A stretch of 64,000 nucleotides of DNA. It comes from a virus. A model generated the notes under the pieces. That model searched no databases, was not told the origin of the DNA, and saw only the letters and a list, made by a program, of their open reading frames with translations. A program made the translations under genes and the position numbers. The stretch covers positions 1 through 64,000 of IMG/VR virus record IMGVR_UViG_3300031521_000030; one strand, written 5' to 3'. Positions 2,761 to 43,738 of the stretch are shown here, in pieces; positions within the stretch are counted from its first letter, which is position 1; each line of letters opens with the position of its first letter.

Positions 2761-3201
2761 ATGGCAAGTCAGAATGTTACCCGTCAACGCACCCGCTCGG
2801 TCGAAGTTACTGAAACCGCCGGGGCGGTCCCCGTTGAAATCCGCAACCTCGCCAAAGAGGTGTTCGTCCAGAACAATGCGGCCAACGAGGCCAAAGGTCT
2901 GCACGACAAGGCACGCAAGTCCTTGCTCGGCAAAATGAAGGACACGGCCATCAAGGCGTTCACCTTCCAGTTCACCGGCAAAGATGGCAAACGCCTCTCC
3001 GTTGACGTTAAGATTGCAACCCCGGAGGTCAACTACATCGACGTTGAAACCCTCCGCAAGTTGGTCACCCCCGAGCAGTTCATCAAGATTGTTACCGCCT
3101 CAAAGGCTGCCGTGGAGGCCGAGGTTGGCTCCGTCATTGCTACTCAGGCATCCCGCACCAAGGCGGGCACGGAAAACGTGAGCGTCAAAGCTGCTCGTTG
3201 A
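2761..3201 (+). CDS. Hypothetical protein with N-terminal RQRTR tag
   Basis: Clean ORF behind a conserved promoter and an A/C-rich leader. Confidence 0.75.
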   Translation: MASQNVTRQRTRSVEVTETAGAVPVEIRNLAKEVFVQNNAANEAKGLHDKARKSLLGKMKDTAIKAFTFQFTGKDGKRLSVDVKIATPEVNYIDVETLRKLVTPEQFIKIVTASKAAVEAEVGSVIATQASRTKAGTENVSVKAAR

Positions 3202-3226
3202 CAAAAAGTTAAGGTCGCAATATAGT
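3198..3226 (+). promoter_or_regulatory. Consensus sigma70 promoter, leaderless geometry, for the HNH gene
   Basis: TTGACA-17-TATAGT, ATG 6 nt downstream. Confidence 0.7.
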
Positions 3227-3232
3227 TTTGGC

Positions 3233-3826
3233 ATGAACCTAGAACTCCCAAAGAGCGTGGCCATGCCGAAACTCCCCCGCCGGATGCCAACTTTTAAGGA
3301 CCACACCGGCCAAACCTTTGGGATGCTGCTCGTCCTAGAATACTCCGGGGTGCACTCCAAAGGGGCTGCCTACTGGAAATGCCAATGTGTTTGTGGAACC
3401 GTTGGGTATGTGATTGGGTCGGACCTCCGGCGGGGGCATACGGATTCCTGCGGTTGTCAAAAGGCGGCCAAGGTTTCTAGGTCGCGCACAACCCATGGTG
3501 CATACCGCACGCCCGAATATAGCATTTGGTGTGGCATGATTGGCCGGTGTGAAAATAAAAAAGGGGAACGCTATTACGCTTACGGCGGTCGGGGGATTAC
3601 AGTATGCCAACGGTGGCGAACCTCCTTCGACGATTTCCTCCAAGATATGGGGCAAAGGCCACCCGGTAAATCCCTCGACCGACGAGATAACGATGGCAAT
3701 TATGAACCAGAGAATTGCCGGTGGGCCACCCCAAAAGAGCAAGCCAACAACCGAAGAAAGTATGGGACGGGTAAAAAACTGCAACATGTTGCAGTAATGG
3801 CTCGGGTAAGAACACGAAATTTATAA
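3233..3826 (+). CDS. HNH-type homing endonuclease
   Basis: GQTFGMLLV, WKCQCVCG, SCGC, YGGRGITVCQRW, SLDRRDNDGNYEPENCRWAT. Confidence 0.88.
   Translation: MNLELPKSVAMPKLPRRMPTFKDHTGQTFGMLLVLEYSGVHSKGAAYWKCQCVCGTVGYVIGSDLRRGHTDSCGCQKAAKVSRSRTTHGAYRTPEYSIWCGMIGRCENKKGERYYAYGGRGITVCQRWRTSFDDFLQDMGQRPPGKSLDRRDNDGNYEPENCRWATPKEQANNRRKYGTGKKLQHVAVMARVRTRNL
3780..3793. repeat. 14-bp palindrome, site 1
   Basis: TGCAACATGTTGCA, in HNH CDS. Confidence 0.9.
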
Positions 3827-4398
3827 TATGAGTAAGCCACCCGACAAGAAGGACATCCCCAGCCTATCAGGCCCGACCGGCAAGTTGCCAAAGGGTTGGG
3901 GCACCAAGGAAGTCCAAAACGGCACCCACACGCTAACCATTGTCACCTCCCCCGGAAACTTTGAATGGCAGGTCGGCAAGCTGGCCCGCAACCGTGGCCG
4001 GATGCAGTTTTCGCCTTGGAATTTCAAGGGCTCGCCGGTAAGCATTGTTGCCCGGCCATGAGCGCACCCATATTTGAACGGGCGGCCCGCGATGCCATTA
4101 TTGCCCGCTATGCTGGAATCCTCCTTTCGCACGGGGTTGGTGGCTGCACTTTGCTCCACCTTGTCCATAAGCACGCCGACGAATACATCGTCGATGCCCT
4201 GCAATGGGCGGCCTATGAGCACCTCGTTATCAATGGCACGGGGGAAGGCCCCGAACCTTTAGGGTTAGGCTTCCTCGCCCCCAAGCGGAAGGAGATGCCC
4301 TACCTTCCATCAACCCAGAATACGGCGAAGCCATGGGAGTCCCAAGGCCATGTCCCTTTCTACCGCAATTTCTCAAAAACCAGCCGAAAGCACCGCAG

Positions 4399-5412
4399 AT
4401 GAACGAAGCCCCTTTACGCGAATTGCTTGGCGAATTAAATGTCGATGTCGTCCAGACGAACGCCAACGGATGGCTCCTTGCATTCTGTCCCTTTGCCGAA
4501 TGGCTCCATAACAGTGGCCAAGACCGCAACCCCGATTTTTATGTCCGCGTGGAGCCCACGGGAATTTCCGGGTTCCACTGTTTCGCATGCAAAACCCACG
4601 GGCGCATGTCAACCCTCGTCCGCAAGTTGGAGTATTACCGGCAGGAAAAATACCGGGGGCTGGCCGTCAAAGCCGACCTCATGGAAACCCCGGACGAGTT
4701 CCCACCCTATGAGCACGACTCGGCAATCCAAGTGGAGCCGGACCCGCTCAATAAAGCGGCCTACCTTGGGATGTATCCCTTGGCATGGGAGGATGAGTGG
4801 AGCCGCAAATACCTCGCCGGGCGGGGCGTTGGCAAGGCAACCGCTGAACTCCTTGGCCTCGTCTATGACGATGACGAATGCCGCATCCTCTTCCCCGTCC
4901 TCAACCACAAGAGCGACCTATTTGGGTTCACCGGACGCACCATATTAGAGAAGCACCAATTCCCCTTCCCCCGCTACCCCAAGGTCCGAGATTACGCGGG
5001 GTTGCCAAAGGAGAGGCTCATCCTTGGAGAGCAGTTAATTGAAAAGGGCAAGCCCTTGCTCTTGGTGGAGGGGCTCTTTGCCTTGGCCCACATGATTGAG
5101 ATTGGTGCGCGGGAGTTTTGCAACCCGGTGGCCACCATGGGCTCAAACATGAGCAAATACCAACGGGACATCCTCATAAGCTACAACGCCCCCATCCACC
5201 TCCTTTATGACAATGATGAGGCGGGGGAGCTTGGCTTATTTGGCCCAATGAATGCGGAAGGGGAACGCATGGGCGGGGGCGCATGGGATAAGGTCCATGA
5301 GCATGTCCCAACCTTCCTGCCGCTCTACCCCGAGGGTATCAACGACCCGGACAACCTAACAACCGAGATGCTGCAAGAGATGCTCTTTTCGGATGATAGC
5401 CTTGCCAATTAA
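4399..5412 (+). CDS. DNA primase (zinc-binding domain + TOPRIM)
   Basis: CPF..H...CFAC zinc finger, ILFPV, LVEGLF, YDNDEAG, DPD. Confidence 0.88.
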   Translation: MNEAPLRELLGELNVDVVQTNANGWLLAFCPFAEWLHNSGQDRNPDFYVRVEPTGISGFHCFACKTHGRMSTLVRKLEYYRQEKYRGLAVKADLMETPDEFPPYEHDSAIQVEPDPLNKAAYLGMYPLAWEDEWSRKYLAGRGVGKATAELLGLVYDDDECRILFPVLNHKSDLFGFTGRTILEKHQFPFPRYPKVRDYAGLPKERLILGEQLIEKGKPLLLVEGLFALAHMIEIGAREFCNPVATMGSNMSKYQRDILISYNAPIHLLYDNDEAGELGLFGPMNAEGERMGGGAWDKVHEHVPTFLPLYPEGINDPDNLTTEMLQEMLFSDDSLAN

Positions 5413-5430
5413 AGGGTTAAACCATAGCAT
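5402..5430 (+). promoter_or_regulatory. Conserved phage promoter
   Basis: TTGCCA-17-TAGCAT. Confidence 0.8.
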
Positions 5431-5439
5431 CCCAGCCCT

Positions 5440-6012
5440 ATGGATGACGAACTGATTAAGTATGCCCTTGGCGAGTTTGCTGCGGGCCGGGGGGTTGAGA
5501 TGAGCGTCCCAACCGACACGGGCCTACGCCGGTTGGTCCTTATCCCATCGGTCCTCTATAAAGCATCCACCGTCATAGAATTGCTCATAGCCTTTGAAGG
5601 GGCCGGGGTCTTTTTTTATGATGGCTCTTTCCCCCTGAATGCCTTTAAATTGATTTCGCATGGATTCCCTTATGCCGTAGCTGAACAAGTTGCGGAACTC
5701 ATCCGGGCGCTCATGCCTTGCCGCGATAGACGGCGAACACCGCTCCTATTAGGAGCACCAACCAAAAACAAAACGGGCAAAAAGCCCAGCCAACCAAAGA
5801 AAGCAAAGTCGAATGACAACTCAGCAGCAGCCAGTAAGGTCCCGCCGTCCACTCGCCCCCGCACCCGCCGGGGCAACACAGCAGCAAGCCCCCGCAAGCC
5901 AAAACGGATCAGCCGGATGGTTAAAGAGGGGCGGAAGCATCTTGAACGAGGCGGACAAGGTAGGGGAGCAAAAGGCCAAACAGGCCGAAATGCGAAAGGC
6001 GGGCCTCGGTAA
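5440..6012 (+). CDS. Hypothetical protein; 3' part overlaps the SSB gene
   Basis: ATG behind a conserved promoter; first ~100 aa look globular. Confidence 0.5.
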   Translation: MDDELIKYALGEFAAGRGVEMSVPTDTGLRRLVLIPSVLYKASTVIELLIAFEGAGVFFYDGSFPLNAFKLISHGFPYAVAEQVAELIRALMPCRDRRRTPLLLGAPTKNKTGKKPSQPKKAKSNDNSAAASKVPPSTRPRTRRGNTAASPRKPKRISRMVKEGRKHLERGGQGRGAKGQTGRNAKGGPR

Positions 6013-6901
6013 CCTCTTCCGGTTCCGGGTCAAAACCGGGGAGATGCGGGAGATCATTATCCTTGATGCGTCCATCAATAACGGGGTGGGCTTTTACGAG
6101 CATAACCTCCAAATTGACGGGCGTTGGGGCCACTTTGAGCCCTGCGTCAAGGAAATGGACAACTGCCCATTGTGCGAAAAATACGGCGAAAGCACCTACG
6201 TCGTTATGCTTTCGTGCTTGGACATCTCAGGCTACACCAAGAAGGGCGATGGCGGCCAGCCGGGCGAGTTCATCCCACAGAGCCGAATGCTCCTTGCTAT
6301 CAAGCAGGGCGGCCTCGGCAAGTTCAAGGACCTTGAAGCGTCCGCAATTGCGCAAGGGAAGACATTGCGCGGCATGTATCTCCGCATGAAGCGGGGGGCA
6401 GATGGCCAGTCCGCTAATACGGGCGAACCCTCTATGATCCCGGAACTCGGCGGGGTGTTGTTTGACATCGTGCCGGAAGCCGAGATCATTGCAACCTATG
6501 GCCACCCGGCCATTATGGGCCGCGACGGTCACACGGTTATCAAGTCGCCCAATGCCGACATCACCGCAATTGATTACGAGCGGGTGTTCCCAATGCCGGA
6601 TGTCAATGAACTGCGCAAGCGGTTCGGCATCCCACCGCAAGCGGGCAGCAGCCAGCAGGTGGAGCAGTATTTGGAGGGCCAAGCAGGGGCCGAGGGGGCA
6701 CAAGCTCCGGGCGTTCCCCGCCGGGCGCTCCGTGGGGGCACCAACCCGCAACAGCAACATCAAGCCCCGGTTCAACCGGCCCCCGGCGGCACCCGCACGC
6801 GGGTTCGTGGGGTCCCGGCGGCCCAGCCAGTGGCCCAACCGGCAGCGGAGGACCACATCCCTATGGGCGGCGAAAGTGACCCATTTGGTGGGGAGCAATA
6901 A
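5813..6901 (+). CDS. Single-stranded DNA-binding protein (gp32-like)
   Basis: H...C..CPLC metal site, low-complexity linker, acidic/aromatic tail ESDPFGGEQ, position between primase and helicase. Confidence 0.7.
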   Translation: MTTQQQPVRSRRPLAPAPAGATQQQAPASQNGSAGWLKRGGSILNEADKVGEQKAKQAEMRKAGLGNLFRFRVKTGEMREIIILDASINNGVGFYEHNLQIDGRWGHFEPCVKEMDNCPLCEKYGESTYVVMLSCLDISGYTKKGDGGQPGEFIPQSRMLLAIKQGGLGKFKDLEASAIAQGKTLRGMYLRMKRGADGQSANTGEPSMIPELGGVLFDIVPEAEIIATYGHPAIMGRDGHTVIKSPNADITAIDYERVFPMPDVNELRKRFGIPPQAGSSQQVEQYLEGQAGAEGAQAPGVPRRALRGGTNPQQQHQAPVQPAPGGTRTRVRGVPAAQPVAQPAAEDHIPMGGESDPFGGEQ

Positions 6902-8955: not shown

Positions 8956-9336
8956 ATGCCAACAACTATCCCGCCAACCACGGCACGAACCAGAACAAGG
9001 GCCACCGGGTCCATATCCACCTCCCGCGAAACAACGATGTCCGGGGTTGTCATGGATCAGGTGGATAACACCGACCGGGTGGACGCCGGGCTCCTTGAGA
9101 ATTGCCCGCACCCGGCCTATGTCACCGTGAAAGGGGGCCTGACCAAAACCACCCCCATCAAGTTTGAATCCGTCCGCGTGGACGTTTCAATCTGCATGCC
9201 TTGCCTCCCAACCGATGCGGCTATTGAGGAAACCTACACCCATATTTCCGGGACGGTTGACGACCTCATTAACCGGGAACTCGGCGTTGCCCTTGGCATC
9301 CAAACCGGGGCCACGGATCAATTGCCCGTCATCTAA
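8956..9336 (+). CDS. Hypothetical protein with N-terminal RTRTR tag
   Basis: ORF in operon context. Confidence 0.7.
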   Translation: MPTTIPPTTARTRTRATGSISTSRETTMSGVVMDQVDNTDRVDAGLLENCPHPAYVTVKGGLTKTTPIKFESVRVDVSICMPCLPTDAAIEETYTHISGTVDDLINRELGVALGIQTGATDQLPVI

Positions 9337-9357: not shown

Positions 9358-10707
9358 ATGACAACATCTCCCACGCCGACCATCGCCGTGCGTTCCCGTT
9401 CCCGCGCTCCGGCCACGGCCATCCATATCCCTCCCGTTGAAAAGACGGATATTATTGTCAGTGTCCCATCGGCAAACATCACCCCCGGCCAGCAAGCCAT
9501 ATTGGATGCAGCCTTTGCCAAACCCAAAGCCAAGGGCAAGGCCAAGAAGGGTGAGGCTGCCGAGCCGGTTGATGCAAAGCCGAAAACCGAGTTGGAGGCC
9601 ATCATGGGGGAAATCCGTGATAAGAAGGGGCCGAAAACAGTATTTTTAGGGACTCAATTGCCATTGTTTAATCTTGTCTCAACCGGGGCATTCACTCTCG
9701 ATCTCGCTCTATTGGGCGGGGTTAGTGAGGGCCAATGCGCAATGTTTTACGGTTGGGAGAACAGTGGAAAAACGACTATGCTCCTTCGGGTGGTTGCATC
9801 GTTGCAGCGGAAACACCCCGACAAGGTAGTTGTTTGGGTTGATGCCGAAACAACCCTCGACCGCGATTGGGCGGTTAAGCATGGCGTGGACCTGCAACGC
9901 CTTGTAATCCTCCAACCCGAAAGCGGGGAAGACGCCGTGGACATGATTAAGTCCATGCTCGATACGTGGGAGGTTTGCGGGGTTGTGGTCGATTCCATCC
10001 CCGCCCTTGTCCCCCAAAAGCAAAGCGACCGCTCGGCAGCCGACAATGCGGCCCCGGCGGAACTCGCCCGGCTCGTTGGGTTTATGTGCTCGGACATCCT
10101 CAAGTCATGGGTCAAGGAGCGCAAGCGGGGCCATTGGGTTACCGTTTTGCTGGCCAACCAGTTCCGCAGCAAGATAACGATGTTCGGTGACCCCCGCAGC
10201 ATCCCCGGCGGCAACCAGTTGAAGTATTTGGTGACAACCCGCGTGGAACTCAAAAACAAGGAGGTAGGGGCCAATGAGGCTGCCAAGGGCAAAGACGCCG
10301 ATGCAACCCAAAAGGAGGCTGCCAAGAAGGCCGCCATGGATTGCGTCTCGGTTAATGAGCATACCTTCAAAATTACGAAGGCCAAGTTGACCAGCATCCG
10401 GGCCGGGGAGTTCCAAATGGTGGTTGACCCCGAGCACCCGCTTGGCATGGGCACCTTCCTTGATGCCCCGGTCGTTGTGGCCTTTGCGAAGAAAATGGGC
10501 ATTGTCCAAGGCGGTGGGTCCAGTTGGCGGGTTGAGTGCATCGACGAGTTCGACGGCATGAAATTCGGCAACTTAGCGGCGATTTGCGATGCTCTCTACC
10601 AAGAGCCGGTGGCCTTCCTTGAGTTGAAGCGCCATATCATTGGGCTAACCCGCGAGGCGAAGGGCATGCCCTACCTCCCACCGGACAATCATTTGATCCG
10701 TTGGTAA
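9358..10707 (+). CDS. recA: RecA/UvsX-like recombinase
   Basis: STGAFTLDLAL, Walker A GWENSGKTT, VDAE, VVVDS, NQFR, PGG. Confidence 0.92.
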   Translation: MTTSPTPTIAVRSRSRAPATAIHIPPVEKTDIIVSVPSANITPGQQAILDAAFAKPKAKGKAKKGEAAEPVDAKPKTELEAIMGEIRDKKGPKTVFLGTQLPLFNLVSTGAFTLDLALLGGVSEGQCAMFYGWENSGKTTMLLRVVASLQRKHPDKVVVWVDAETTLDRDWAVKHGVDLQRLVILQPESGEDAVDMIKSMLDTWEVCGVVVDSIPALVPQKQSDRSAADNAAPAELARLVGFMCSDILKSWVKERKRGHWVTVLLANQFRSKITMFGDPRSIPGGNQLKYLVTTRVELKNKEVGANEAAKGKDADATQKEAAKKAAMDCVSVNEHTFKITKAKLTSIRAGEFQMVVDPEHPLGMGTFLDAPVVVAFAKKMGIVQGGGSSWRVECIDEFDGMKFGNLAAICDALYQEPVAFLELKRHIIGLTREAKGMPYLPPDNHLIRW

Positions 10708-10712: not shown

Positions 10713-11135
10713 ATGCCCGAGGGCTACGACTTTGTGGCCGAGGGGACCAAAAACCCTCGGCTATGCCAAGTCCGCTACTGCCGCAACACAAGGGCCGGGG
10801 CCAATAAGGTCTGCTCGAAGTGCATGATGCGGCGGTGGCGGGAACGCTACCCGGTCAAAGCGGCCTTTTCCCAACTGAGGAACAGCGCCATGGACCGGAA
10901 GAAACCTTTTGAGCTAACCCTTGAGCAGTTTGTGGATGTGGTTGTGGGGACGGGCTATATGGAGCGCAAGGGGCATGAGGCAAACAGCCTCCATGTTGAC
11001 CGAAAGGACTCTACCAAGGGCTACGTTTATGATAACCTCCAAATCATCACAAATACTCAGAACATTACCAAAGAAAACAAGGAACGCGCAACCCGACGAG
11101 CGGGTAGGCAATTAGCCGACAACGAGCCGTTCTAG
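10713..11135 (+). CDS. Putative HNH-like endonuclease
   Basis: N-terminal Cys cluster, HVDRKDSTKGYVYDNLQII...N. Confidence 0.6.
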   Translation: MPEGYDFVAEGTKNPRLCQVRYCRNTRAGANKVCSKCMMRRWRERYPVKAAFSQLRNSAMDRKKPFELTLEQFVDVVVGTGYMERKGHEANSLHVDRKDSTKGYVYDNLQIITNTQNITKENKERATRRAGRQLADNEPF

Positions 11136-11149
11136 TGCAACATATTGCA
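11136..11149. repeat. 14-bp palindrome, site 3 (one mismatch)
   Basis: TGCAACATATTGCA, gene junction. Confidence 0.8.
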
Positions 11150-11152
11150 GCC

Positions 11153-11518
11153 ATGGGATTACGAGAACGAAAAGCCGACAAGCTCCCGAGCAACGCTCAC
11201 CGCCGGGCACCAAAGCAGGAAAAGGAATGTGCCAAGCGCATCGGGGGGACTATAACCCCAAGGAGCGGGGCCGGGGATGTCAAGGGAGATGTCCGCATAA
11301 AGGGCTACGCCCGCATTGAGTGCAAAACCACCCTCCAAAAGAGTTTCTCAATCACCCGCGAATTGGTGCGGAAAATAGAGGAGGCCGCCCTTGCATCCCA
11401 AGGAGAATTGCCCGCCTTTTGCATTGAGTTCCTCAACCCGGATGGTGAACGGGATTGTGAAATAGCCGTGGTCCCTGTCTTCGTTTTGGAGATGCTCGGC
11501 CTACAAAGAACCAGATGA
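11153..11518 (+). CDS. PD-(D/E)XK nuclease (Holliday junction resolvase-like)
   Basis: SGAG..KGDV....RIECK. Confidence 0.7.
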   Translation: MGLRERKADKLPSNAHRRAPKQEKECAKRIGGTITPRSGAGDVKGDVRIKGYARIECKTTLQKSFSITRELVRKIEEAALASQGELPAFCIEFLNPDGERDCEIAVVPVFVLEMLGLQRTR

Positions 11519-12911: not shown

Positions 12912-13499
12912 ATGAACATCGGCTTAGACCTCTCCCTTACGGAGACGGGGTGGTATTTTATCGCCCCCGGAATTGAAGAGGGGGGAGTCCTCAAACCCGG
13001 AAAACTCATGGGGGTTGAACGCCTTGCCAATTTGCGGGGCCAACTGTCGGGCCTGATAGCCCGCTGCAACAAGTTGCACCCCATTGAGCGCGTTGTCATA
13101 GAGGGCTACGCTTTCGGGGCCAAGAACAAGCGCGAGGCGATTGGGGAATGGGGTGGGGTTGCCCGCCTATGCCTCGCCGACCATAACCTTTCGGCCTATA
13201 CCGTCCAGCCAACCAGCCTCAAGCAATTCGTCACCGGCAAGGGCAACTCCCAAAAGGATGAGGTAATGCTCCAGATTTACAAGCGGTGGGGCCGGGAGTT
13301 CCGAAACAACAATATCGCCGATGCTTTCGCCTTGGCCGCCGTGGGAGTAGCCATGGGGACAAAGGGCGAATATCATGCTATCTTCCAGCAAGACCCAACG
13401 GCAATCCAAGCGACAGCCGTTGGAAAAGTTGAGCAAATCCTTAAAACAACCCCGAGAACATCGGGGATTGTCCGAGTTAGAACCCGTAATAATCCATGA
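12912..13499 (+). CDS. ruvC: RuvC-like Holliday junction resolvase
   Basis: IGLDLSLTETG, VIEGYAF, KQFVTGKGN, ADAFALA. Confidence 0.85.
   Translation: MNIGLDLSLTETGWYFIAPGIEEGGVLKPGKLMGVERLANLRGQLSGLIARCNKLHPIERVVIEGYAFGAKNKREAIGEWGGVARLCLADHNLSAYTVQPTSLKQFVTGKGNSQKDEVMLQIYKRWGREFRNNNIADAFALAAVGVAMGTKGEYHAIFQQDPTAIQATAVGKVEQILKTTPRTSGIVRVRTRNNP
13065..13078. repeat. 14-bp palindrome, site 4
   Basis: In RuvC CDS. Confidence 0.9.
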
Positions 13500-14939: not shown

Positions 14940-15392
14940 ATGAGCGAAACGAACACAGCGGACAAACTCGTAGGAAAGTTTTGCATCTTCTTTGAGCAGG
15001 GATGCCCACGAAACTCCCTCTATTATGAGGAAGCGGCCTATGAAGTGACGGAAGTTGTAGGCACCAAGAAGTTATCCATTCGCCCGGTTGCCTTGCCCCT
15101 CGGCCATGAGGTGAAGGTGCGGACGAGTGCAATCAATGGGGACCACATTGCGGCATGGTTCTCAACCAAGGCAAACGCGGTTCAGGCCCTCCATTTGGTC
15201 CGGGCGTTAAAGCGGCAGGTCAACAACCTCGTAGCCAATGCGGCCTCCGAGATTTCTGCCCTCTTTTACGTGCAGCCGGGCAGCCCATTGCCACCCGTTG
15301 ACCTCGCCGGGGAAGTCCCCGTTGCGGCCCTTAACGGTATTGAAGTCGCGGCCCCAACGGTCGCCAGAACTCGCACAAGAGCGGTTCATTAA
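14940..15392 (+). CDS. Hypothetical protein with C-terminal RTRTR tag
   Basis: ORF after an A/C-rich leader. Confidence 0.7.
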   Translation: MSETNTADKLVGKFCIFFEQGCPRNSLYYEEAAYEVTEVVGTKKLSIRPVALPLGHEVKVRTSAINGDHIAAWFSTKANAVQALHLVRALKRQVNNLVANAASEISALFYVQPGSPLPPVDLAGEVPVAALNGIEVAAPTVARTRTRAVH

Positions 15393-17035: not shown

Positions 17036-18007
17036 GTGAATACGCCCGTCCGAACACGAACTCGCATCGCGCCAACCACGCCACCCCCCGCACCGGCACC
17101 TCATGCCCTCGCGGTCATTGATGGCAAAGTGAGCGTCTATTGCGCCCACACCTCCCTCCAACCTATTGAGGGGGTCATACCCAACCCGCGCAACCCAAAC
17201 GGGCACCCGGACAAGCAGATTGAATTGCTGGCCAAGATCATTCTCGCGCAGGGTTGGCGTAACCCGGTTGTCGTATCCAACCGCAGCGGATTTGTCATCA
17301 AGGGTCATGGCCGGTTAGCGGCGGCCCGGAAGTTGGGCCTAACCCAAGTCCCCGTCGATTTCCAAGACTATATCAACGAGGCGAGCGAATGGGCGGACAT
17401 GGTTGCGGACAACCGCATCGCTGAACTTAGTTCCATGGATGAGGGGGACCTCTCCGGGTTGTTCAGTGAAATCCACGATAATTTTCCAGCCTTCGACATG
17501 GAGTTGACCGGCTTTACGGAGGAGGAGTTGCCTACCTTCAACCCGGTTGACCCGGCACCCTCCGGGGGGAGCACCCCAACCGATGCAGAAACCACCGTCG
17601 CCCTCACAACCCTTGCCTCCCGCTTTGGTGTGCCACCTTTCTCGGTGCTGGACGCCCGGCAGGGCTATTGGCAAGACCGGAAGCGCACATGGTTGTCCAT
17701 TGGCATCAGGTCGGAACTCGGACGGGGGGAGGCCCTCCTTTCCGGTGGTTCTGATGGGTTCCATTTGGGTGGTAACTATGCGGGCGGTGCGGCCCCGGCG
17801 GGTGCATCGAAAACGGGGGCCTTGCTATTCGGCGGCGGGGCACAAGCGGGCCTCAACAAGTTGATGAAGGACAAGAGCCGTGGGCGCAAGGCCAACGCAA
17901 CGGTATGCGGGAGCCCGCTACCAGCAACGAATTACAAGAAGTCCCGCGCACGCGGAACGGGCACCGGCAAGGCAATCCCCGGCACGGCGGCCAAGTCAGC
18001 CGCCTAA
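17036..18007 (+). CDS. ParB/Srx-like N-terminal domain protein
   Basis: PNPRNPNGH, GWRNPVVV, GHGRLAAA, ADNRIAEL. Confidence 0.85.
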   Translation: MNTPVRTRTRIAPTTPPPAPAPHALAVIDGKVSVYCAHTSLQPIEGVIPNPRNPNGHPDKQIELLAKIILAQGWRNPVVVSNRSGFVIKGHGRLAAARKLGLTQVPVDFQDYINEASEWADMVADNRIAELSSMDEGDLSGLFSEIHDNFPAFDMELTGFTEEELPTFNPVDPAPSGGSTPTDAETTVALTTLASRFGVPPFSVLDARQGYWQDRKRTWLSIGIRSELGRGEALLSGGSDGFHLGGNYAGGAAPAGASKTGALLFGGGAQAGLNKLMKDKSRGRKANATVCGSPLPATNYKKSRARGTGTGKAIPGTAAKSAA

Positions 18008-19813: not shown

Positions 19814-20350
19814 ATGACCACTCCCGTTACAGCCCGCACACGCTCCCGCATAAGGGACATCGACCTTGGGGATAAACCCGAGGCCCATACCACCGCAATA
19901 TCTGATCCTCGCAAGTTGGCCGTGATCCACCAACTTGAGGAGCAACTCGGCGTGGTGAGCTATGCGTGCAAGGCGGCGAGTGTGTCCCGGCGGACCTTCT
20001 ATTATTGGGTTGCCAATGACCCGGATTTTGCCAAGGAGGTGGATGATGTCATTAACTTCCAAGTCGATTACGTTGAGCGCAAACTCTTGACCAACATCAA
20101 GGAGGGCAAGGAGAAGTCGATCATCTTTTACCTCTCCACCAAGGGGAGGCACCGGGGCTATTGCCAACGGGTTGAGGTTGGTGGCACGCCGGGCGCATTG
20201 CCCATCCCAATCGAGGCGGTCCATAAATTCCCGGATATGGCCAACGAGGTAGCCCCCACCGCCTTGGCGCGGATTATTTCCATGGTGTTCGCCCCAAAGG
20301 AGGAGGTGGAAGATGAAGCCAACGTATCCGACGAACAGCCAAGGTCTTGA
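19814..20350 (+). CDS. terS: Terminase small subunit-like HTH protein
   Basis: ACKAASVSRRTFYYW...DPDF, IIFYL..KGRHRGY; directly upstream of TerL. Confidence 0.7.
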   Translation: MTTPVTARTRSRIRDIDLGDKPEAHTTAISDPRKLAVIHQLEEQLGVVSYACKAASVSRRTFYYWVANDPDFAKEVDDVINFQVDYVERKLLTNIKEGKEKSIIFYLSTKGRHRGYCQRVEVGGTPGALPIPIEAVHKFPDMANEVAPTALARIISMVFAPKEEVEDEANVSDEQPRS

Positions 20351-22006: not shown

Positions 22007-22979
22007 CGGGGCAGCCATGAACTACGACCTATTTGCTACCAAAATCCCCCACCCTTCCAAGGCCGAAAAAGAGAAGCACCGGGAACAACTGATCCACGAA
22101 ATCAACAACACCCCCCTGACCAAAGACCAGAGGGATGCGGCCTTCCGGGCGGCAGCCGACAAGACGGCGGAATGGGCTAAGGACCAAATCCAACTCATCG
22201 TGGAGGATGAGGCCCGGCTCCGGTTGGAGTTCGAGGCCGCATGCGAGGAGGATAATTCCCTTGCTAACATTCCCCCAGCGGCCAAGCGGGCGGTGCATGA
22301 CTTCGCATGGCAACAAGGCGGTGGGGCTCGCCGCGATGTCCATACTTGCTACCTTGAGGTCACCGACCTTGTTCGGCAGGTTGTGGGGGCATTGGATGCC
22401 GAGGGTGGGTTGGCCTTTGCCACAACGGTTGCCCTCAACGATGCCCAAATGGAAGCCCGCATTGCCGGGGAGATTCTTGATGCTGTCAACATCCCAACCA
22501 ACGGGCCGGAGGGCGTTGGGGAGCGGGAGGAGCTAACACTCTCCCAGCGCGTCCGCATCCTAGCCGCCGGGAGGGGGCCAATGGTATGAGCCGCTCAACT
22601 GGCTATTGTCGGTTCCCGGATGGGACCATCAAATACTTCCTCTATGATGGCACCGTTAGCTACGTGCGGGCCAACCTTTATGACTCCCCGGAGGAAGCAT
22701 GGGAGCAAAAGCTCAACCTCGTCCGGGCGGCCAAAGCGGATTACAACGTGCAAGAGGTCCAACTCGCTATCGACTACGGGGATGGGATGAGTTGGGAAGC
22801 AACCGCCGACCTTGGCAAAATGCGCATCCTTGACCGCTTGCAACCCTTTGAGGAGATCGAACCCGAGCCGGGGGATTGTGGGTTTGGCTATGGGAGCGGA
22901 AGTTGCTCCATGCACACCCCGGATGATGGGTTGCCGGTTTGGGTGCAGGAAGAAATAGCAAGGCTCCGTGCGATTCCTG

Positions 22980-23008
22980 TTGCCAATGATTCGGTTAAGC
23001 CATAATGT
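22980..23008 (+). promoter_or_regulatory. Conserved phage promoter, leaderless geometry
   Basis: TTGCCA-17-TAATGT-6-ATG. Confidence 0.8.
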
Positions 23009-23457
23009 CACCCCATGAGCAAATTCGCCCTTCCTAGCCACACCAAGGTAACCCTCCCCGCCGATGTCCGGGACGCAATTCGCAATGGTTCCAACCTTGC
23101 ATACCTTTTCAATGAAACCGAGGCCGAGGAGTTCCAACTCAAAGCCTCAACGGAGTTCCAAGTCCAAGGGGCAATGCTGCGGGACAGCTTCATTAGCTGC
23201 CTTGTCATGCCTCGCGTGTTCCCCGCCGGGACAACCGCCTACGCCTTCCGGCACCCCCGCATTGGGTATTCCAAATACGTTTGGGTGGGTGATGAGCAAT
23301 ACCCCGCCAAGGGCGCGGACATCATCCATTACGGCACGGACTTCACGGTGGTCCTTGTGGTTGATCTTGGGGGCCATAAGTGCCTCGCCAATGCCTTCAA
23401 AAGCATAACCCTCCCGGTCCCCCAAGTGGTTGGGATTGCTGATTAAGCAGATTCCTG

Positions 23458-23486: not shown

Positions 23487-23492
23487 CACACC

Positions 23493-24086: not shown

Positions 24087-24119
24087 CCAAAGCCGGGCGG
24101 GGTTCAACCCCCCGCTCGC

Positions 24120-32896: not shown

Positions 32897-33355
32897 ATGA
32901 AGCTGATACCCCGGCCCGATTTGAATGAGGCGGCCACGTATGCCTTGGAGATGTCGGCTCCCTATTGGTCGGATGAGGCCAAAGCGTTGGGCGTTATTGC
33001 CCGCGCATGTGGCAACCCGGCCAGCAACCCCGACAATATAGCCGTGGAGGTCACAACGGATGAGGCCACCCAAACAACATCCATCCGGTTATTTATCCCC
33101 AAAGCACCCTCCCATCAACTGGACCTCGGGCGCATCCGGGTCTGCGGGACATGCAAGCATTTGAGGCGGGCGTATCCGGGGGCGGCCAATGGGTTGTGCC
33201 ACCATGCCAACGGGGGCTTCGCAATACCGGCCCTGACCGAGCACAAGGCATGCTGGGAAAGCCATGATGCTTCCGATGTTGGCCCGTCCCCAAAACCACT
33301 GCAACAAGTTGCACTAAAACTCAAACCGAAGGGCCGTGTCATTGACATGGGTTAG
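32897..33355 (+). CDS. Hypothetical Cys-motif protein with C-terminal GRVIDMG
   Basis: CGTC..C..C. Confidence 0.7.
   Translation: MKLIPRPDLNEAATYALEMSAPYWSDEAKALGVIARACGNPASNPDNIAVEVTTDEATQTTSIRLFIPKAPSHQLDLGRIRVCGTCKHLRRAYPGAANGLCHHANGGFAIPALTEHKACWESHDASDVGPSPKPLQQVALKLKPKGRVIDMG
33300..33313. repeat. 14-bp palindrome, site 11
   Basis: In CDS, near the end. Confidence 0.9.
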
Positions 33356-33358
33356 CAA

Positions 33359-33937
33359 ATGGAAGTATTCATCCGAGAGGTTGATGGGAGGCAGCATTAT
33401 TGCACCGTCGTTGACAATAAATACCCGGCGGCGGTTGAGGCATTAGAGGATGTCCACAATGATCTGTCCCGGCGGGGGCTTCAACACAAGTGGATCAAGG
33501 AGAGTGACCCAATAAATGGAGTGACCCTCCTCATGGTGCCCCTGCAAACCAAACGCCCTCTATCCCTTGCCAATCTAACCGGCCCGGCCCCAACCCAAAC
33601 GCCAACCCGCCCAAATGGGGAGCGGTTTAAATGCGCCACCTGCACTTGGTGGAGTTTCTCCTCCCGCGATAATGAGGGGTATGCAACCTGCCGGAGCCCT
33701 CATGCCAAGCAAACCGTTGTCCCCAACTTGAGGGGGGACCCGGAGCGCGGGTTGGATGTTGGCATGCAATACCACGCCCTCGGCGATTGCCTTGCAACCT
33801 TGCCAATCGCGGGGTGCTCCCATTGGGTGCTGGATGCGGGGGCAATGTTTGGCCCGGCCACCAATAACAACGCGGTCCAGCCCTTGGCAAAGACAACCAA
33901 GCCCAAACCAAAGGGGCGCATCATCGACATGAGCTAA
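33359..33937 (+). CDS. Hypothetical Cys-motif protein with C-terminal GRIIDMS
   Basis: CATC..C..C. Confidence 0.7.
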   Translation: MEVFIREVDGRQHYCTVVDNKYPAAVEALEDVHNDLSRRGLQHKWIKESDPINGVTLLMVPLQTKRPLSLANLTGPAPTQTPTRPNGERFKCATCTWWSFSSRDNEGYATCRSPHAKQTVVPNLRGDPERGLDVGMQYHALGDCLATLPIAGCSHWVLDAGAMFGPATNNNAVQPLAKTTKPKPKGRIIDMS

Positions 33938-34197
33938 TGCAAGCACGCCTTACATCCGGCAACACGGGCGACGTTTGGTTGGTCCTTGTGCCCGACAACC
34001 GGGAGGAGTCGGACGTTGACCTTGGCAACATGGCCGTGCGCTTTATCCGCGATGGGGTTGACCACCAAATCATAGACGATGGGTTGTATGGGCAAATCGC
34101 GGTGCGGCTGGCCTTTAAACCAACAACAACCCCGACCACCCAACCGGCTGGCCCCCTATTAGACGCGCCAAGGGTTCGTCTGCTGGACATGGGCTAG
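33937..34197 (+). CDS. Hypothetical protein with C-terminal RLLDMG
   Basis: Coupled to the upstream gene (TAATG). Confidence 0.7.
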   Translation: MQARLTSGNTGDVWLVLVPDNREESDVDLGNMAVRFIRDGVDHQIIDDGLYGQIAVRLAFKPTTTPTTQPAGPLLDAPRVRLLDMG

Positions 34198-34323: not shown

Positions 34324-34352
34324 TTGCCAATGATTCGGTTAAGGGTTAGGTG
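34324..34352 (+). promoter_or_regulatory. Conserved phage promoter, leaderless geometry
   Basis: TTGCCA-17-TAGGTG-6-ATG. Confidence 0.8.
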
Positions 34353-35341
34353 TCAGGCATGCAAGCAACCGCAACCCACCAACCGAAGGCCAAAACCAAC
34401 AAGCAACTCGTCGCCGAATATAAGGCGTTGAAGAAGGCATACTTTGCCATTGGCAACAGCCGGGAAAACATAGCCAATGTCCGCCGGGCGGTTGGGGAAG
34501 CCGGGGCCAAGGATGATTACAAATGGGCCAAACGCATGGAGGAACTCTGGGTTCAAGAAGCCAATGGTTATACTCGCCGTCTTGCAATTGTTTCCCTCCT
34601 AACCGCAAAGGGCATCAACATTTACGAACTCGTCTAATATGCCAACCCCAAGCAAAGCCCTGCCCTTTATAGGGGACGCCCGCTCGCTAATGGCAACCGC
34701 CGACCTTTGCACAACTAGCAAGCAGCAAGCCAGCAACCTTTATGCGCAAGCGGCCCGCATCCTTCGCGCCATCCCGAGCGCCGACCTAACCCCCCATGAA
34801 TGGGTGCAGGTTGTTAGCCTTTGGGAAGAATGTGATGCCGCTATTTGATCTTATGGCCGCCAACAAAGTCAAAGCCAAGGTGCCCAACAACAGGCACACC
34901 ACTCTCAAGGATGTTAATGCCATCCTCGGCCAAAAGATGCCGGGCGTGCTCCTCTATAAAGGCAAGGGCTACTTCTACTTCGCGGGGGAGGGCGCTGATT
35001 TCTGGCCCGAGACGATAGTTATAACAACCCGCCTCGGCATCATGTCCCCATGGTCTTGGTATAAGGAGGCCCTGCGGCTTTCAACGTCCCACCAACCATG
35101 ACCCTCACCAACCACCAACGGCAAGTCGTGGACCAACTCAAAGGGTGGGACCAAACCCGTCGCCCTATTATGACGGGCATCGCATTGCACCGCATCCTTG
35201 GGTGGCCGGTGCAAACCCTCCAACGCACCATCCGTGAACTTGAGGGCAAGGGGCTCGCCTATTACCGGGGCGGTTGCATCCATTGGCAACCATGGCAACT
35301 CCACCCCCTTTGAGGTTTCTGCAACTCATTGCAGATTCATA

Positions 35342-36065: not shown

Positions 36066-36073
36066 GAAACCTG

Positions 36074-36102
36074 TTGCCAATGATTCGGTTAAGGGTTAGG
36101 TG
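36074..36102 (+). promoter_or_regulatory. Conserved phage promoter, leaderless geometry
   Basis: TTGCCA-17-TAGGTG-6-ATG. Confidence 0.8.
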
Positions 36103-37892: not shown

Positions 37893-38161
37893 GCAACATA
37901 ACATCCACCAACACCGGCACATCACGGACCCCGAGGAAGCGTTGGAGCACCTGCGGCTTGCCGGGCGGCTGACCAACCGGGGCGGGCACTATTTCAACCA
38001 TGGCCAGATGCCCTACGCTTGGAGCATAACCCACGCAACGATGGAGGTGTTGGTGGTGCGTGGGGTTGCCAAGGCGGTAATGAGTTGCCGGGGCGGGGCC
38101 ATATACGTGGTGGCCTACATCCCAACCGGGAAGCTAATGCGGAAGATTGAAATGAATCCTG

Positions 38162-38190
38162 TTGCCAATGACATAGTTAAACCATAGGTT
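38162..38190 (+). promoter_or_regulatory. Conserved phage promoter, leaderless geometry
   Basis: TTGCCA-17-TAGGTT-6-ATG. Confidence 0.8.
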
Positions 38191-41482: not shown

Positions 41483-41485
41483 ACC

Positions 41486-42523: not shown

Positions 42524-42545
42524 GCCAAACGAATTTTGCATAGGG

Positions 42546-42578: not shown

Positions 42579-42579
42579 G

Positions 42580-42608
42580 TTGCCAATTATACGGTTAAGC
42601 ATTAACGT
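42580..42608 (+). promoter_or_regulatory. Conserved phage promoter
   Basis: TTGCCA-17-TAACGT, directly after a terminator. Confidence 0.8.
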
Positions 42609-43067
42609 GGCCTTCTATGCGAACCATCTATAAACTGCGGGGGGCCTTTTAACATGGACGGATACGATGAGGAGGAGCAATCCATCACCATGGCCAGTGT
42701 CCTGCTCGATATGGCACGGAGGGGGTTGCCTTGCCAATCCATGGTCCTCACGCCAAACGTGGAAACCGGGCGGGAGATGTTTACCACCATCTTCCTGCTT
42801 GGCCCTGATGCGTTGAAGCGGGCGGGGGCCTTCCTCCCCTTGTTCATGCACTACCAACAACCCCCCGGCAAATTCATGCTGCAACTCGCGGCAAGCGACC
42901 CCATCATATTCATCTGCGAGTGGATGAGGGAAACCCGCCACCCGTGGTCCAAGGTTGTAACCATCTTTGGGGGCACGCCGTTCATCCACCTGTCCTTCTA
43001 TGGGGAGTCCATTGCCAAGGAAGCCCTTGGTATCTTCGCAAACATTGTGGAGCTTTGATGAAATCCC

Positions 43068-43096
43068 TTGCCAATTAGTCGGTTAAACCCTATCCA
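43068..43096 (+). promoter_or_regulatory. Conserved phage promoter
   Basis: TTGCCAATTAGTCGGTTAA. Confidence 0.7.
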
Positions 43097-43106
43097 TTCG
43101 TAATGC

Positions 43107-43120
43107 TGCAACAAGTTGCA
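43107..43120. repeat. 14-bp palindrome, site 16
   Basis: Just downstream of a promoter. Confidence 0.9.
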
Positions 43121-43399
43121 GTAAACTAAAAACCAAAGGCCAACAACCATGACCGCCACAATCCAAGACATCACAGACCACCTTGAAAACAAAGTGGAGA
43201 CACTAACCCCAAACGACACCGTTGTGCTTACCGCGTTGCGGAAGTTTGAGCCGGACCATTTGGCGTGCATCCGGGAGTTGCCGGGCGGCAAGCTGGAAAT
43301 CCTCACCATGCCGCCAACCAAACAAAATATCAGGCAAGCGGACTTGTGGGCTATGGCTTTCGGGTCTGTGCTGGGTATGCCCTATACGCCCCAACCCCT

Positions 43400-43738
43400 A
43401 TGAGTGAACTTCCCGCCGTAACCGTTGTGGCGCGGACAAGGAGCCGGGTTGAGCCAACCCCCGTCCCCGTCGTTGCCGTCCCAACCGTTGCCGTCCGCGT
43501 CCGAACCCGACCGGCACCCCCGGTGGTTGCCCGCATTACCAACAAGCCCCGCAAACTTGGGGACCCCCGCAAGCCATTGTGGGAGATTTGGGGAAGGCCC
43601 CCCGGCAAGACCGGCCCGGTTATGTATTGCGCGGAATACCATGCCGACACCGAAGCCGGGGTTAGGGCGCTGTGGGTCAACAACTTTGTCGATCAAGATT
43701 ATGAAATTCTATCCCTCTGCCTTGCCAAATCCAAATGA
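43400..43738 (+). CDS. Hypothetical protein with two RxRxR tags
   Basis: VVARTRSRV and VAVRVRTRP. Confidence 0.7.
   Translation: MSELPAVTVVARTRSRVEPTPVPVVAVPTVAVRVRTRPAPPVVARITNKPRKLGDPRKPLWEIWGRPPGKTGPVMYCAEYHADTEAGVRALWVNNFVDQDYEILSLCLAKSK

What the first reader, a model, noticed from the sequence alone, without database searches (positions are those of the whole stretch)
2761..43738. Shared R-x-R-[TS]-R peptide on terminal tails of about 10 unrelated proteins: candidate targeting or docking signal
Seen at N-termini: 2761 (VTRQRTRS), 8956 (TARTRTRA), RecA 9358 (AVRSRSRA), ParB-like 17036 (PVRTRTRI), TerS 19814 (TARTRSRI), 43400 (VARTRSRV and AVRVRTRP), SSB 5813 (PVRSRR). Seen at C-termini: HNH 3233 (MARVRTRNL*), RuvC (IVRVRTRNNP*), 14940 (VARTRTRAVH*), SSB tail (GTRTRVRG). 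Weaker matches: 11153 (LQRTR*), RNase H linker (TARVRRR), scaffold (VARERTK). The motif lies outside the folded domains, in Thr/Pro/Val-rich extensions that canonical RecA and RuvC lack. Codons differ between copies (CGN and AGR mixed, e.g. cgt-tcc-cgt-tcc-cgc vs cga-acc-aga-aca-agg), so it is conserved as peptide rather than as a DNA repeat. Carriers are mostly replication, recombination and packaging proteins. Inference: a short linear motif that recruits proteins to a common hub, replication compartment or condensate, or marks them for modification. It could work with the palindrome lattice, but nothing in the sequence links the two directly.
Basis: partly seen in the sequence, partly recalled or inferred. 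Interest (0 to 1): 0.82.

Follow-up and report, generated by a model that had tools for sequence, protein, structure and literature searches.

The report
Shared arginine tag on phage DNA proteins
A dozen unrelated DNA-handling proteins of this uncultured 97-kb phage carry the same five-residue arginine peptide (R-x-R-[T/S]-R) on a floppy end; related phages and the phage's own T4-gp32-like DNA-binding protein keep it too, so it looks like an undescribed address label whose reader has not been shown.

Summary
R[TVSQ]R[TSV]R occurs 11 times in the called proteins, against 0.3 expected from shuffles within proteins or within 10-20-residue blocks (0 of 2000 and 0 of 300 shuffles reach it). The strict form occurs 11 times in + frames and never in - frames. 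All six Arg codons are used. The carriers share nothing but the tag.

Fourteen curated tags lie on 12 proteins, outside the folded domains. None lies in the structural genes.

The tag is not private to this genome:
- Orthologues in syntenic relatives (Rhizobium phage L338C, Pseudomonas phage SM1, Aeromonas phage HJ05, metagenomic contigs) carry it.
- Each genome has its own flavour.
- The tag sits at either protein end: RuvC carries it C-terminally here and N-terminally in two relatives.

New here: the "SSB" has the T4 gp32 fold and zinc ligands. In 145 diverged relatives an alternating RxRxR sits at about residue 7 (31 seen, 4.3 expected). [quoted passage not shown]

Best reading (0.4): a portable LAST-like tether to the SSB-ssDNA filament. 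Main rival (0.3): a generic DNA tether or sled.

The scan has noted similar arginine tags in other phages. No searched paper describes them.

The parts
2782..2796 (+). Tag RQRTR, residues 8-12 of the 146-aa protein w2761 (2761-3201), the unknown gene after the DNA polymerase
   Evidence: Orthologues are tagged at the same end: L002 MPATSKTPVRTRTRK, L004 MSAQPVRKRRV, SM1 gp038 QVRRLRRP, HJ05 MTTPTRTRRRV.
3803..3817 (+). Tag RVRTR, 2 residues before the stop of the HNH endonuclease (3233-3826)
   Evidence: The PHROG HNH match covers residues 12-177 of 197, so the tag at 191-195 lies outside it.
5813..6901 (+). gp32-like ssDNA-binding protein. It is both a tag carrier and the candidate reader. 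True start is 5813.
   Evidence: AF2 core 40-290 is confident and the tails are disordered. Top fold matches are T4/RB69 gp32 (Foldseek E 1.2e-4; VIA Z 7.9-6.7, next unrelated 4.7). H97/C111/C118/C121 are invariant. Homologues align from the N-tail.
5837..5848 (+). Tag RSRR (PVRSRRP), residues 9-12 of the SSB N-tail
   Evidence: 10 of 11 full-length homologues have an N-terminal basic tag. In 145 family representatives the median tag position is residue 7.
6794..6808 (+). Tag RTRVR in the disordered SSB C-tail, 30 residues before the end and upstream of the SSB-type tip ESDPFGGEQ*
   Evidence: Homologue tails carry 1-3 tags.
8986..9000 (+). Tag RTRTR, residues 11-15 of w8956 (8956-9336), a small acidic protein always found just upstream of RecA
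   Evidence: Orthologues and homologues are tagged at the N-terminus.
9391..9405 (+). Tag RSRSR, residues 12-16 of the RecA-like recombinase (9358-10707), at the tip of a ~76-residue N-terminal extension
   Evidence: The Pfam RecA match starts at residue 82. R12 and R14 are at least 90% conserved in 23 homologues. About 50 of 64 homologues keep an R-x-R core at residues 2-26.
11507..11515 (+). Weak partial tag RTR at the extreme C-terminus (..GLQRTR*) of the Holliday-junction resolvase 11135-11518
13473..13487 (+). Tag RVRTR, 3 residues before the stop of RuvC (12912-13499)
   Evidence: The Pfam RuvC match is 54-142 of 195. RuvC of L004 and of SM1 carries the tag at the N-terminus instead; HJ05 carries it at the C-terminus.
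15366..15380 (+). Tag RTRTR, 3 residues before the stop of w14940 (about 14940-15392), function unknown
   Evidence: L338C gp085 ends ..LEVRQRTRKTD* upstream of its ParB-like genes, but homology to w14940 was not tested.
17051..17065 (+). Tag RTRTR, residues 6-10 of the ParB-like nuclease (17036-18007)
   Evidence: PHROG ParB-like matches start at residue 42. SM1 ParB-like starts MALQRSRRS.
19835..19855 (+). Tag RTRSRIR, residues 8-14 of the small terminase subunit (19814-20350)
43433..43510 (+). Two tags, RTRSR (residues 12-16) and RVRTR (33-37), in the Val/Pro-rich N-tail of w43400 (43400-43738)
46012..46026 (+). Tag RSRVR, 11 residues before the stop of the 82-aa protein 45814-46062
52162..52176 (+). 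Variant tag RVRRR in the linker between the RNase H (10-151) and DUF1643 (212-341) domains of 51604-52797

Best explanation
The peptide [V/A/T/P]-[V/A/T]-R-x-R-[T/S]-R is a portable short linear tag under selection. It sits on disordered N- or C-terminal tails, and once in an inter-domain linker, of the phage's DNA-metabolism proteins. I propose that it is a LAST-like basic arm. The phage's own SSB has the T4 gp32 fold, and its family carries this peptide about 7 residues from the N-terminus. [quoted passage not shown] RecA, RuvC, HNH, the ParB-like nuclease, TerS and the other carriers would use the same peptide to plug into the SSB-ssDNA filament. This would concentrate them where ssDNA is exposed. 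For RecA it would also compete with SSB-SSB contacts and so help the hand-off of ssDNA. Shown: the tag is real and selected, it is portable and conserved, the SSB is gp32-like, and the tag is a family-wide feature of that SSB's N-tail. Inferred: that the SSB core, rather than the DNA itself, reads the tag, and that other carriers use the same acceptor site.
For: Enrichment and terminal placement. Peptide-level conservation with all six Arg codons. Carriers unrelated outside the tag. Orthologues tagged in L002-L006, L338C, SM1 and HJ05, with RuvC switching ends. RecA family: R12 and R14 at least 90% conserved, core kept in about 50 of 64 homologues. Genome-specific flavour: alternating RxRxR in 17 of 19 tags here and in L338C, against 3 of 44 in SM1, HJ05, L004 and L002 (Fisher p = 1.7e-10, hand-curated). 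Sled activity is reported to be robust to sequence variation (PMC4797294), so DNA sliding alone would not demand such uniformity within a genome. All-or-none pattern: phage DLP5 keeps SSB, RecA, RuvC and the AAA+ ATPase but none of them is tagged. SSB is gp32-like; the depositors of RcTiptonus label its orthologue 'T4 gp32-like'. SSB-family N-tails: RxRxR in 31 of 145 against 4.3 expected, median position residue 7; C-tails 37 against 5.0. gp32 LAST at residues 3-7 is essential for docking on the adjacent gp32: PMC12893549 and PMC11551737. Six of the 14 tags are exactly (Arg)3(Ser/Thr)2.
Against: In T4 the N-domain is largely helical, cooperativity is salt-independent, and R4 can be replaced (PMC12893549); its contact may be helix to helix (PMC11551737). 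A bare extended Arg peptide may therefore not be the docking element. In this family a long helix (residues 40-62) follows the tag and could be the true cooperativity element. AF2 did not dock the N-tail on the core (pLDDT about 45). The LAST sequence also lines gp32's ssDNA trough, so the same peptide could simply bind nucleic acid. All tag-positive genomes examined belong to one phage supergroup, so the co-occurrence of tags with this SSB is not phylogenetically independent. TerS, the ParB-like protein and the AAA+ ATPase are not classical SSB clients. DLP5 keeps the SSB core yet has no tags. The flavour counts were curated by hand.
Confidence: 0.4

Rival explanations
1. A generic nucleic-acid tether or 'molecular sled'. 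The tag binds DNA electrostatically and without sequence preference. It keeps its carriers on phage DNA and lets them search by one-dimensional diffusion. No protein reader is involved.
For: Three spaced Arg on a flexible tail. Identified carriers are mostly DNA-handling; five have no known function. Relatives show K/R-mixed versions such as RKRGKK and PIRKK. Short basic peptides with a KRRR core bind and slide on DNA and can carry cargo (PMC4740752, PMC4797294). gp32's internal LAST lines its ssDNA trough.
Against: Sled activity is robust to sequence variation. Yet tags are uniform within a genome and differ between genomes, and the R-x-R register with a non-basic x is kept across 40%-identical RecA homologues. 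Polymerase, primase and helicase of this phage lack the tag although they also act on DNA. DLP5 has lost all tags at once. An SSB would hardly need an extra generic DNA anchor.
Confidence: 0.3
2. A recognition or tethering tag for an AAA+ machine. Candidates are the phage's own Ycf46/Cdc48-like ATPase (genome 88516-90294, outside the window) and a host unfoldase such as ClpX. The machine would remodel or degrade the tagged proteins on schedule.
For: Most tags lie within 3-16 residues of a free end. From my own knowledge, not checked here: ClpX reads basic terminal signals on phage replication and transposition proteins (MuA C-terminal RRKKAI, lambda O N-terminus) and tethering tails (SspB ..LRVVK). 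The AAA+ gene module is conserved with L338C, and the ATPase itself carries a tag-like C-tail (L338C VAVRARSRTAP; here RPRERSRAG).
Against: Tags also occur in an internal linker (RNase H-DUF1643), 30 residues from an end (SSB tail), and in 2-4 copies per tail. That suits avidity better than a degron. DLP5 keeps the AAA+ ATPase but has no tags. No co-variation was tested.
Confidence: 0.12
3. A client signal for a replication compartment or condensate. Multivalent Arg tags together with acidic SSB tips drive a coacervate-like factory, and tagged proteins partition into it.
For: SSB tails combine 1-4 basic tags with an acidic SSB-type tip (..DPF.., DDNIPF) on long disordered linkers. Many clients carry one tag.
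Against: HJ05 has many tags, but its SSB tail is basic and lacks an acidic tip. Only 60 of 145 family members end in a tip-like sequence. No sequence test can show a condensate. This reading overlaps the best explanation.
Confidence: 0.08
4. A site of post-translational modification, for example phosphorylation of Thr/Ser or ADP-ribosylation of Arg by a phage or host enzyme.
For: Thr or Ser is flanked by Arg, as in basophilic kinase sites. The location is disordered and exposed.
Against: No kinase, ADP-ribosyltransferase or similar Pfam domain was found among the 50 window proteins scanned, although many small ORFs remain unassigned. Position 4 is Val or Arg in several tags. Relatives use RRRR or R-[IL]-R-R without Ser or Thr.
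Confidence: 0.05
5. Not a functional feature: a by-product of GC-driven Arg/Thr composition, low-complexity tails, or a DNA/RNA-level repeat near gene boundaries.
For: The tails are Thr/Pro/Val/Ala-rich. The tags lie near gene starts and stops.
Against: Global and local shuffles never reach the observed count. The - strand frames have none. Codons differ freely. The tags are conserved in orthologues at 30-50% identity. There is no association with the palindrome.
Confidence: 0.01

Closest known systems
[quoted passage not shown] 1992, as cited in PMC11551737; PMC12893549)
   Same: A five-residue peptide of three basic and two hydroxyl residues near the N-terminus of a gp32-fold SSB. Six of the 14 tags here are exactly (Arg)3(Ser/Thr)2. 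In this SSB family the tag sits at a median of residue 7.
   Different: Here the basic and hydroxyl residues alternate, and Arg is used with almost no Lys. The peptide lies on a long disordered tail upstream of a helix. It also occurs in SSB C-tails and on about a dozen non-SSB proteins, which has not been reported for T4. Docking on the SSB core is not shown.
Molecular sleds: adenovirus pVIc GVQSLKRRRCF and NLS-like basic peptides (PMC4740752, PMC4797294)
   Same: A short, portable basic peptide that could tether cargo proteins to DNA. It occurs on several proteins of one virus.
   Different: Sleds tolerate wide sequence variation and are known from an animal virus and from mammalian proteins. 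This tag keeps a strict R-x-R register and a genome-specific flavour. Neither DNA binding nor sliding has been tested. A search for 'molecular sled' together with 'bacteriophage' found only 2 papers, and neither title or abstract start concerns phage sleds; they were not read.
Bacterial SSB C-terminal tip (DDDIPF) interaction hub (own knowledge)
   Same: One short disordered peptide organises many DNA-metabolism enzymes around SSB. The SSB family here still ends in such a tip in many members. RNase H, a recombinase and nucleases are typical clients.
   Different: The polarity is reversed: the shared peptide is on the clients and is basic, not on the SSB and acidic. HJ05 has tags but no acidic tip.
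ClpX recognition and tethering peptides: MuA RRKKAI, lambda O N-terminus, SspB XB tail (own knowledge, not checked here)
   Same: Basic terminal peptides on phage replication or transposition proteins, at either the N- or the C-terminus.
   Different: Tags here also occur internally and in multiple copies. No link to an unfoldase was shown.
AT-hook (PF02178) and SPKK-type minor-groove motifs
   Same: An Arg-rich short motif in disordered regions of DNA-binding proteins.
   Different: None of the 14 tags has a G-R-P core. No Pfam AT-hook match was found.

Membership tests
gp32 LAST-type cooperativity peptide | [quoted passage not shown] | tested here: met
   RTRTR x3, RSRSR and RTRSR x2 make 6 of 14 tags exact. 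The others replace one Ser/Thr with Val, Gln or Arg.
gp32 LAST-type cooperativity peptide | Sits near the N-terminus (residues 3-7 in T4) of an SSB with the gp32 fold | tested here: met
   The SSB model matches T4/RB69 gp32 and has invariant His-Cys3. The tag is at residues 9-12 here and at a median of residue 7 in 145 family members, with RxRxR seen 31 times against 4.3 expected.
gp32 LAST-type cooperativity peptide | Docks on the core of the neighbouring DNA-bound SSB and gives cooperative binding | not testable with these tools
The AF2 monomer leaves the tail undocked.
Molecular sled | Short peptide with a cluster of three or more basic residues | tested here: met
   Every full tag has three Arg within five residues; the weak RTR* has two.
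Molecular sled | Binds DNA without sequence preference and slides along it | not testable with these tools
   This needs fluorescence-polarisation and single-molecule assays.
AT-hook (PF02178) | R-G-R-P core | tested here: not met
   No tag contains G-R-P, and there is no Pfam hit.
Twin-arginine (Tat) signal peptide | S/T-R-R-x-F-L-K followed by a hydrophobic h-region at the N-terminus | tested here: not met
   The Arg residues alternate rather than pair. Polar Pro/Ala/Thr linkers follow, not a hydrophobic stretch. Four of the 14 tags are C-terminal.
AAA+ (ClpX-type) terminal recognition tag | Must lie at or next to a free terminus, normally as a single copy | tested here: inconclusive
   Ten of 14 tags lie within 16 residues of an end. 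One is in an inter-domain linker, one is 30 residues from an end, and tails of relatives hold up to 4 copies.
SSB-tip (DDDIPF) client | A folded pocket on the client binds the acidic tip of SSB | not tested
   The tag is a disordered peptide, not a pocket. HJ05 has tags without an acidic tip.

The most novel reading that the evidence does not exclude
A phage-wide addressing system. The cooperativity arm of a gp32-like SSB has been copied as a five-residue module onto a dozen DNA enzymes, so that they plug into the same acceptor site on SSB-coated ssDNA and compete with SSB-SSB contacts. The code (RxRxR, R-phi-R-R, RRRR, PVRK) co-evolves with its reader in each phage lineage. This would reverse the polarity of the bacterial SSB-tip hub.
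Probability: 0.3. Interest if true: 0.8.

Novelty: new variant of a known kind. Interest (0 to 1): 0.64.

Why it matters
If a five-residue peptide is enough to address proteins to a phage's replication and recombination machinery, three things follow.
- It would show a simple and so far undescribed way in which phages organise DNA metabolism without folded adaptor domains.
- It would give a sequence signature for spotting DNA-associated proteins among the many unknown phage ORFs. Five carriers here have no known function.
- It would offer a minimal portable tag for engineering.

The gp32-like SSB family that carries the tag is large: 1,763 clusters at 50% identity have E <= 1e-3. Cultured relatives exist on Rhizobium, Pseudomonas and Aeromonas hosts, so the idea can be tested directly.

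Tried and rejected
- Composition or low-complexity artefact: rejected by global and block shuffles.
- DNA repeat: rejected by codon diversity and the absence of - strand hits.
- Link to the 14-bp palindrome lattice: none.
- Single-protein TerL scan of viral contigs found nothing. A 23-sequence RecA alignment was too diverse for the locus finder; a 6-sequence alignment worked.
The contigs of RecA homologues P0002 and P0046 could therefore not be fetched.
The planned test of SSB core against the RecA N-tail was not run.
- A sequence profile of the SSB family against PDB gave nothing. Only the fold search found gp32.
- Looking for a reader by presence or absence in tag-less DLP5 failed: DLP5 keeps nearly the whole replication module.
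- 'The tag binds the acidic SSB tip' is weakened by HJ05, which has tags but no acidic tip.
- The fold of w8956, the tagged protein upstream of RecA (pLDDT 72), found no PDB match with E <= 0.001. I had wondered whether it is a UvsY-like mediator; this is unresolved.
- A greedy-ORF survey of 37 RecA loci gave mostly spurious frames in high-GC contigs. It was replaced by homology-anchored ORFs.
- Literature searches for RxRxR, molecular sled in phages, arginine-rich SLiMs in phages, and L338C found no description of such tags.

Full report
**Context.** The window is the first 64 kb of a 97,128-bp IMG/VR virus record. GC content is 57%, and essentially all genes lie on the + strand. The region holds these genes:
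- a family-A DNA polymerase with an N-terminal UDG-like domain, a DnaG-type primase and an SF2 helicase;
- RecA, RuvC, a ParB-like nuclease and TerS;
- an HNH endonuclease, a Holliday-junction resolvase, a Cas4-like exonuclease and a DprA-like protein;
- an RNase H-DUF1643 fusion.

Gene order matches Rhizobium phage vB_RleS_L338C, Pseudomonas phage SM1, Aeromonas phage HJ05, Rhodobacter phage RcTiptonus and Stenotrophomonas phage DLP5.

I found one more, ERSRVRIA, 11 residues from the end of the 82-aa protein 45814-46062.
- R[TVSQ]R[TSV]R occurs 11 times in a greedy + strand gene set of 139 proteins (30,266 residues). Shuffling residues within each protein gives 0.29 (0 of 2000 shuffles reach 11).
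- Shuffling within 10- or 20-residue blocks keeps the local low-complexity composition. It gives 0.38 and 0.34 (0 of 300 each).
- Arg makes up only 6.2% of residues.
- The strict seven-residue form occurs 11 times in the three + frames and never in the - frames.
- The tags use all six Arg codons (CGC 13, CGT 8, CGA 7, CGG 5, AGA 5, AGG 5) and both Ser codon families. The peptide is conserved, not a DNA repeat.
- All-against-all blastp of the carriers finds only the 8-13-residue tags themselves.
- With curated starts, 10 of 14 tags lie within 16 residues of an end. Three C-terminal tags are 2-3 residues from the stop. Of the other four, one lies 30 residues from the end of the SSB tail, one is the second copy in w43400 (residues 33-37), one is in the RNase H-DUF1643 linker (residues 187-191, between domains ending at 151 and starting at 212), and one is 11 residues before the stop of w45814.
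- No tag lies in a real gene beyond 53 kb, where the virion genes are.
- There is no positional association with the 14-bp palindrome lattice.

**The tag is conserved in relatives and is portable.** The RecA-like protein has 63 phage homologues at 35-53% identity.
- In an alignment of 23 of them, R12 and R14 are at least 90% conserved although they lie in a disordered extension.
- About 50 of 64 keep an R-x-R core at residues 2-26. Examples are MTTPPRTRTRPT, MMELSARTRTRTAP and MATRTRTRKS.

Homology-anchored ORFs in five syntenic IMG/VR contigs and in cultured phages show the tag on orthologues of w2761, w8956, RecA, SSB, RuvC, the ParB-like protein and the AAA+ ATPase. The set of tagged proteins differs between genomes. 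In SM1 the polymerase, helicase and exonuclease are tagged. RuvC carries the tag at the C-terminus here and in HJ05, but at the N-terminus in L004 (MNSQPVRSRRSP) and SM1 (MRIRRTKS). That is how a modular linear motif behaves.

**Flavour is genome-specific.**
- Here and in L338C the tags alternate: RxRxR in 17 of 19.
- SM1 uses R-[I/L]-R-R, HJ05 uses RRRR or RxRRR, and L004 uses PVRSRR on four different proteins. Only 3 of 44 tags in SM1, HJ05, L004 and L002 alternate (Fisher p = 1.7e-10). The lists were curated by hand, and orthologous tags are not independent.
- RcTiptonus uses Lys-rich versions (PVRK, PIRKK).
- DLP5 has no tags on any orthologue, although it keeps SSB, RecA, RuvC and the AAA+ ATPase.

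Uniformity within a genome, divergence between genomes, and loss of all tags together point to one shared constraint, that is, a common reader. Independent DNA-binding arms would not behave this way.

**The SSB link.** ORF 5813-6901 has no Pfam match and hits only a PHROG of unknown function.
- Its homologues align from the N-tail onward. The true start is therefore 5813, not the 303-aa form in the database.
- H97, C111, C118 and C121 are invariant.
- An AF2 model (mean pLDDT 75, core above 90) has disordered residues 1-35 and 290-354.
- Its six best Foldseek matches are all T4 or RB69 gp32 (best E = 1.2e-4). VIA-align gives Z = 7.9, 7.6, 7.0 and 6.7 over 160-168 residues, and the next unrelated chain scores 4.7. 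These Z values are moderate, but gp32 stands clear of the rest, and the zinc ligands agree.
- The depositors of RcTiptonus call its orthologue 'T4 gp32-like'.
- The family is large: 1,763 clusters at 50% identity.

Among 145 representatives, results were as follows:

| Region | Motif | Observed | Expected from tail shuffles |
|---|---|---|---|
| N-tail | any Arg tag | 62 | 26.6 |
| N-tail | alternating RxRxR | 31 | 4.3 |
| C-tail | alternating RxRxR | 37 | 5.0 |

The median position of the N-tail tag is residue 7 (interquartile range 5-9 for any Arg tag; 6-9.5 for alternating RxRxR).

[quoted passage not shown] They are the essential residues of the N-domain, which binds the core of the adjacent DNA-bound gp32 and gives cooperativity. 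A near-identical KRKTS lines the ssDNA trough (PMC12893549; PMC11551737). Six tags here are exactly (Arg)3(Ser/Thr)2.

**Interpretation.** The shortest account is that the tag is the SSB's own N-terminal arm, reused as a module on other proteins so that they dock on SSB-coated ssDNA. That fits the client list: a recombinase, resolvases, nucleases and RNase H. It also gives RecA a way to break SSB cooperativity.

The account is inferred, not shown, and has these weaknesses:
- gp32's N-domain is helical, and its contact is not simply electrostatic.
- A helix at residues 40-62 follows the tag here and may be the real cooperativity element.
- The LAST sequence also binds ssDNA.
- All tag-positive genomes examined belong to one supergroup.

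The main rival is a sequence-independent DNA tether or molecular sled (PMC4740752, PMC4797294). It needs no reader, but it does not predict the genome-specific flavour or the conserved R-x-R register. The remaining readings are weaker:
- An AAA+ recognition tag is possible. The phage ATPase carries a tag-like tail. Internal and multi-copy tags, and DLP5, argue against it.
- 'The tag binds the acidic SSB tip' is weakened by HJ05, which has tags but no acidic tip.
- A modification site is unlikely. No kinase or ADP-ribosyltransferase domain was found among the 50 window proteins scanned, and relatives use flavours without Ser or Thr.

**Novelty.** Full-text searches found no description of shared arginine tags on phage replication proteins. 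Earlier unchecked notes of this scan report comparable tags in other phage genomes (RRR-aliphatic, RVRRVR, IxRxPRPK, PP[KA]Rx[RKS]). Two of those notes also name the gp32 LAST motif as closest known. The phenomenon therefore recurs within the scan. This report adds three things: the SSB here has the gp32 fold, the tag is a family-wide feature of its N-tail at the LAST position, and a cultured relative (DLP5) lacks the whole system.

**Limits.** No binding was modelled, and the contigs of the nearest RecA homologues could not be fetched.

Noticed in passing
window 5440-6012 and 5813-6012: ORF 5440-6012 is a real conserved small gene; residues 4-125 have homologues in L002 and L006. It overlaps the SSB N-tail by 200 nt in another frame, and its overlapping tail also reads ..STRPRTRRG... 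The database gene call for the SSB (303 aa) starts 59 codons too late.
   Followed up: partly
L039 (Rhizobium phage L338C) about 23069-24114: The L338C SSB gene is split by a frame change near 23293-23317. Residues 1-85 of homologue P0138, including MTDTPEVRTRSRT, align in one frame and residues 78-351 in another. The deposited gp064 lacks the tagged N-terminus. This may be a sequencing error or a real frameshift.
   Followed up: partly
L043 (Stenotrophomonas phage DLP5) 10369, 11914, 14712, 15083: In tag-less DLP5 the orthologues of w2761, SSB, w8956 and RecA all begin MGV(K/S): MGVKMGD, MGVSWLK, MGVKMGK, MGVKLPG. The upstream DNA differs between them. This could be a replacement N-terminal signal or a translation-start preference. 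It is unexplained.
   Followed up: partly
window 22976-23005, 34330-34360, 36070-36099, 38158-38187: A DNA-level repeat (..CCAATGATTCGGTTAAGGGT..) recurs at gene ends. It reads as the C-terminal peptide PVAND[SI]VK[PG]* on three otherwise different small proteins, and as PMIRLRVR in another frame. It is probably a regulatory element, perhaps the multi-copy promoter noted elsewhere in the scan.
   Followed up: no
window 33326-34197, 45260-45289; genome 90270-90948: A second shared C-terminal peptide, basic-x-R-[IVLM]-[IVL]-[DE]-[ML]: KPKGRVIDMG*, KPKGRIIDMS*, PRVRLLDMG*, PRKRMIEM*, PRKGRSIEM*, and GGRKVELN* on the AAA+ ATPase. It loosely resembles terminal clamp-binding motifs. Other findings of this scan already flag it.
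   Followed up: no
window 51604-52797: RNase H (residues 10-151) is fused to DUF1643 (212-341), with a variant tag in the linker.
   Followed up: partly
window 3-2636: The family-A DNA polymerase has an N-terminal UDG-like domain and a 3'-5' exonuclease. The same architecture is annotated in SM1 gp037. The gene is cut by the contig start.
   Followed up: no
window 8956-9336: The small acidic tagged protein always found immediately upstream of RecA folds as four long beta-strands plus one long helix (pLDDT 72). It has no PDB match with E <= 0.001. It is a candidate recombination accessory factor of unknown kind.
   Followed up: partly
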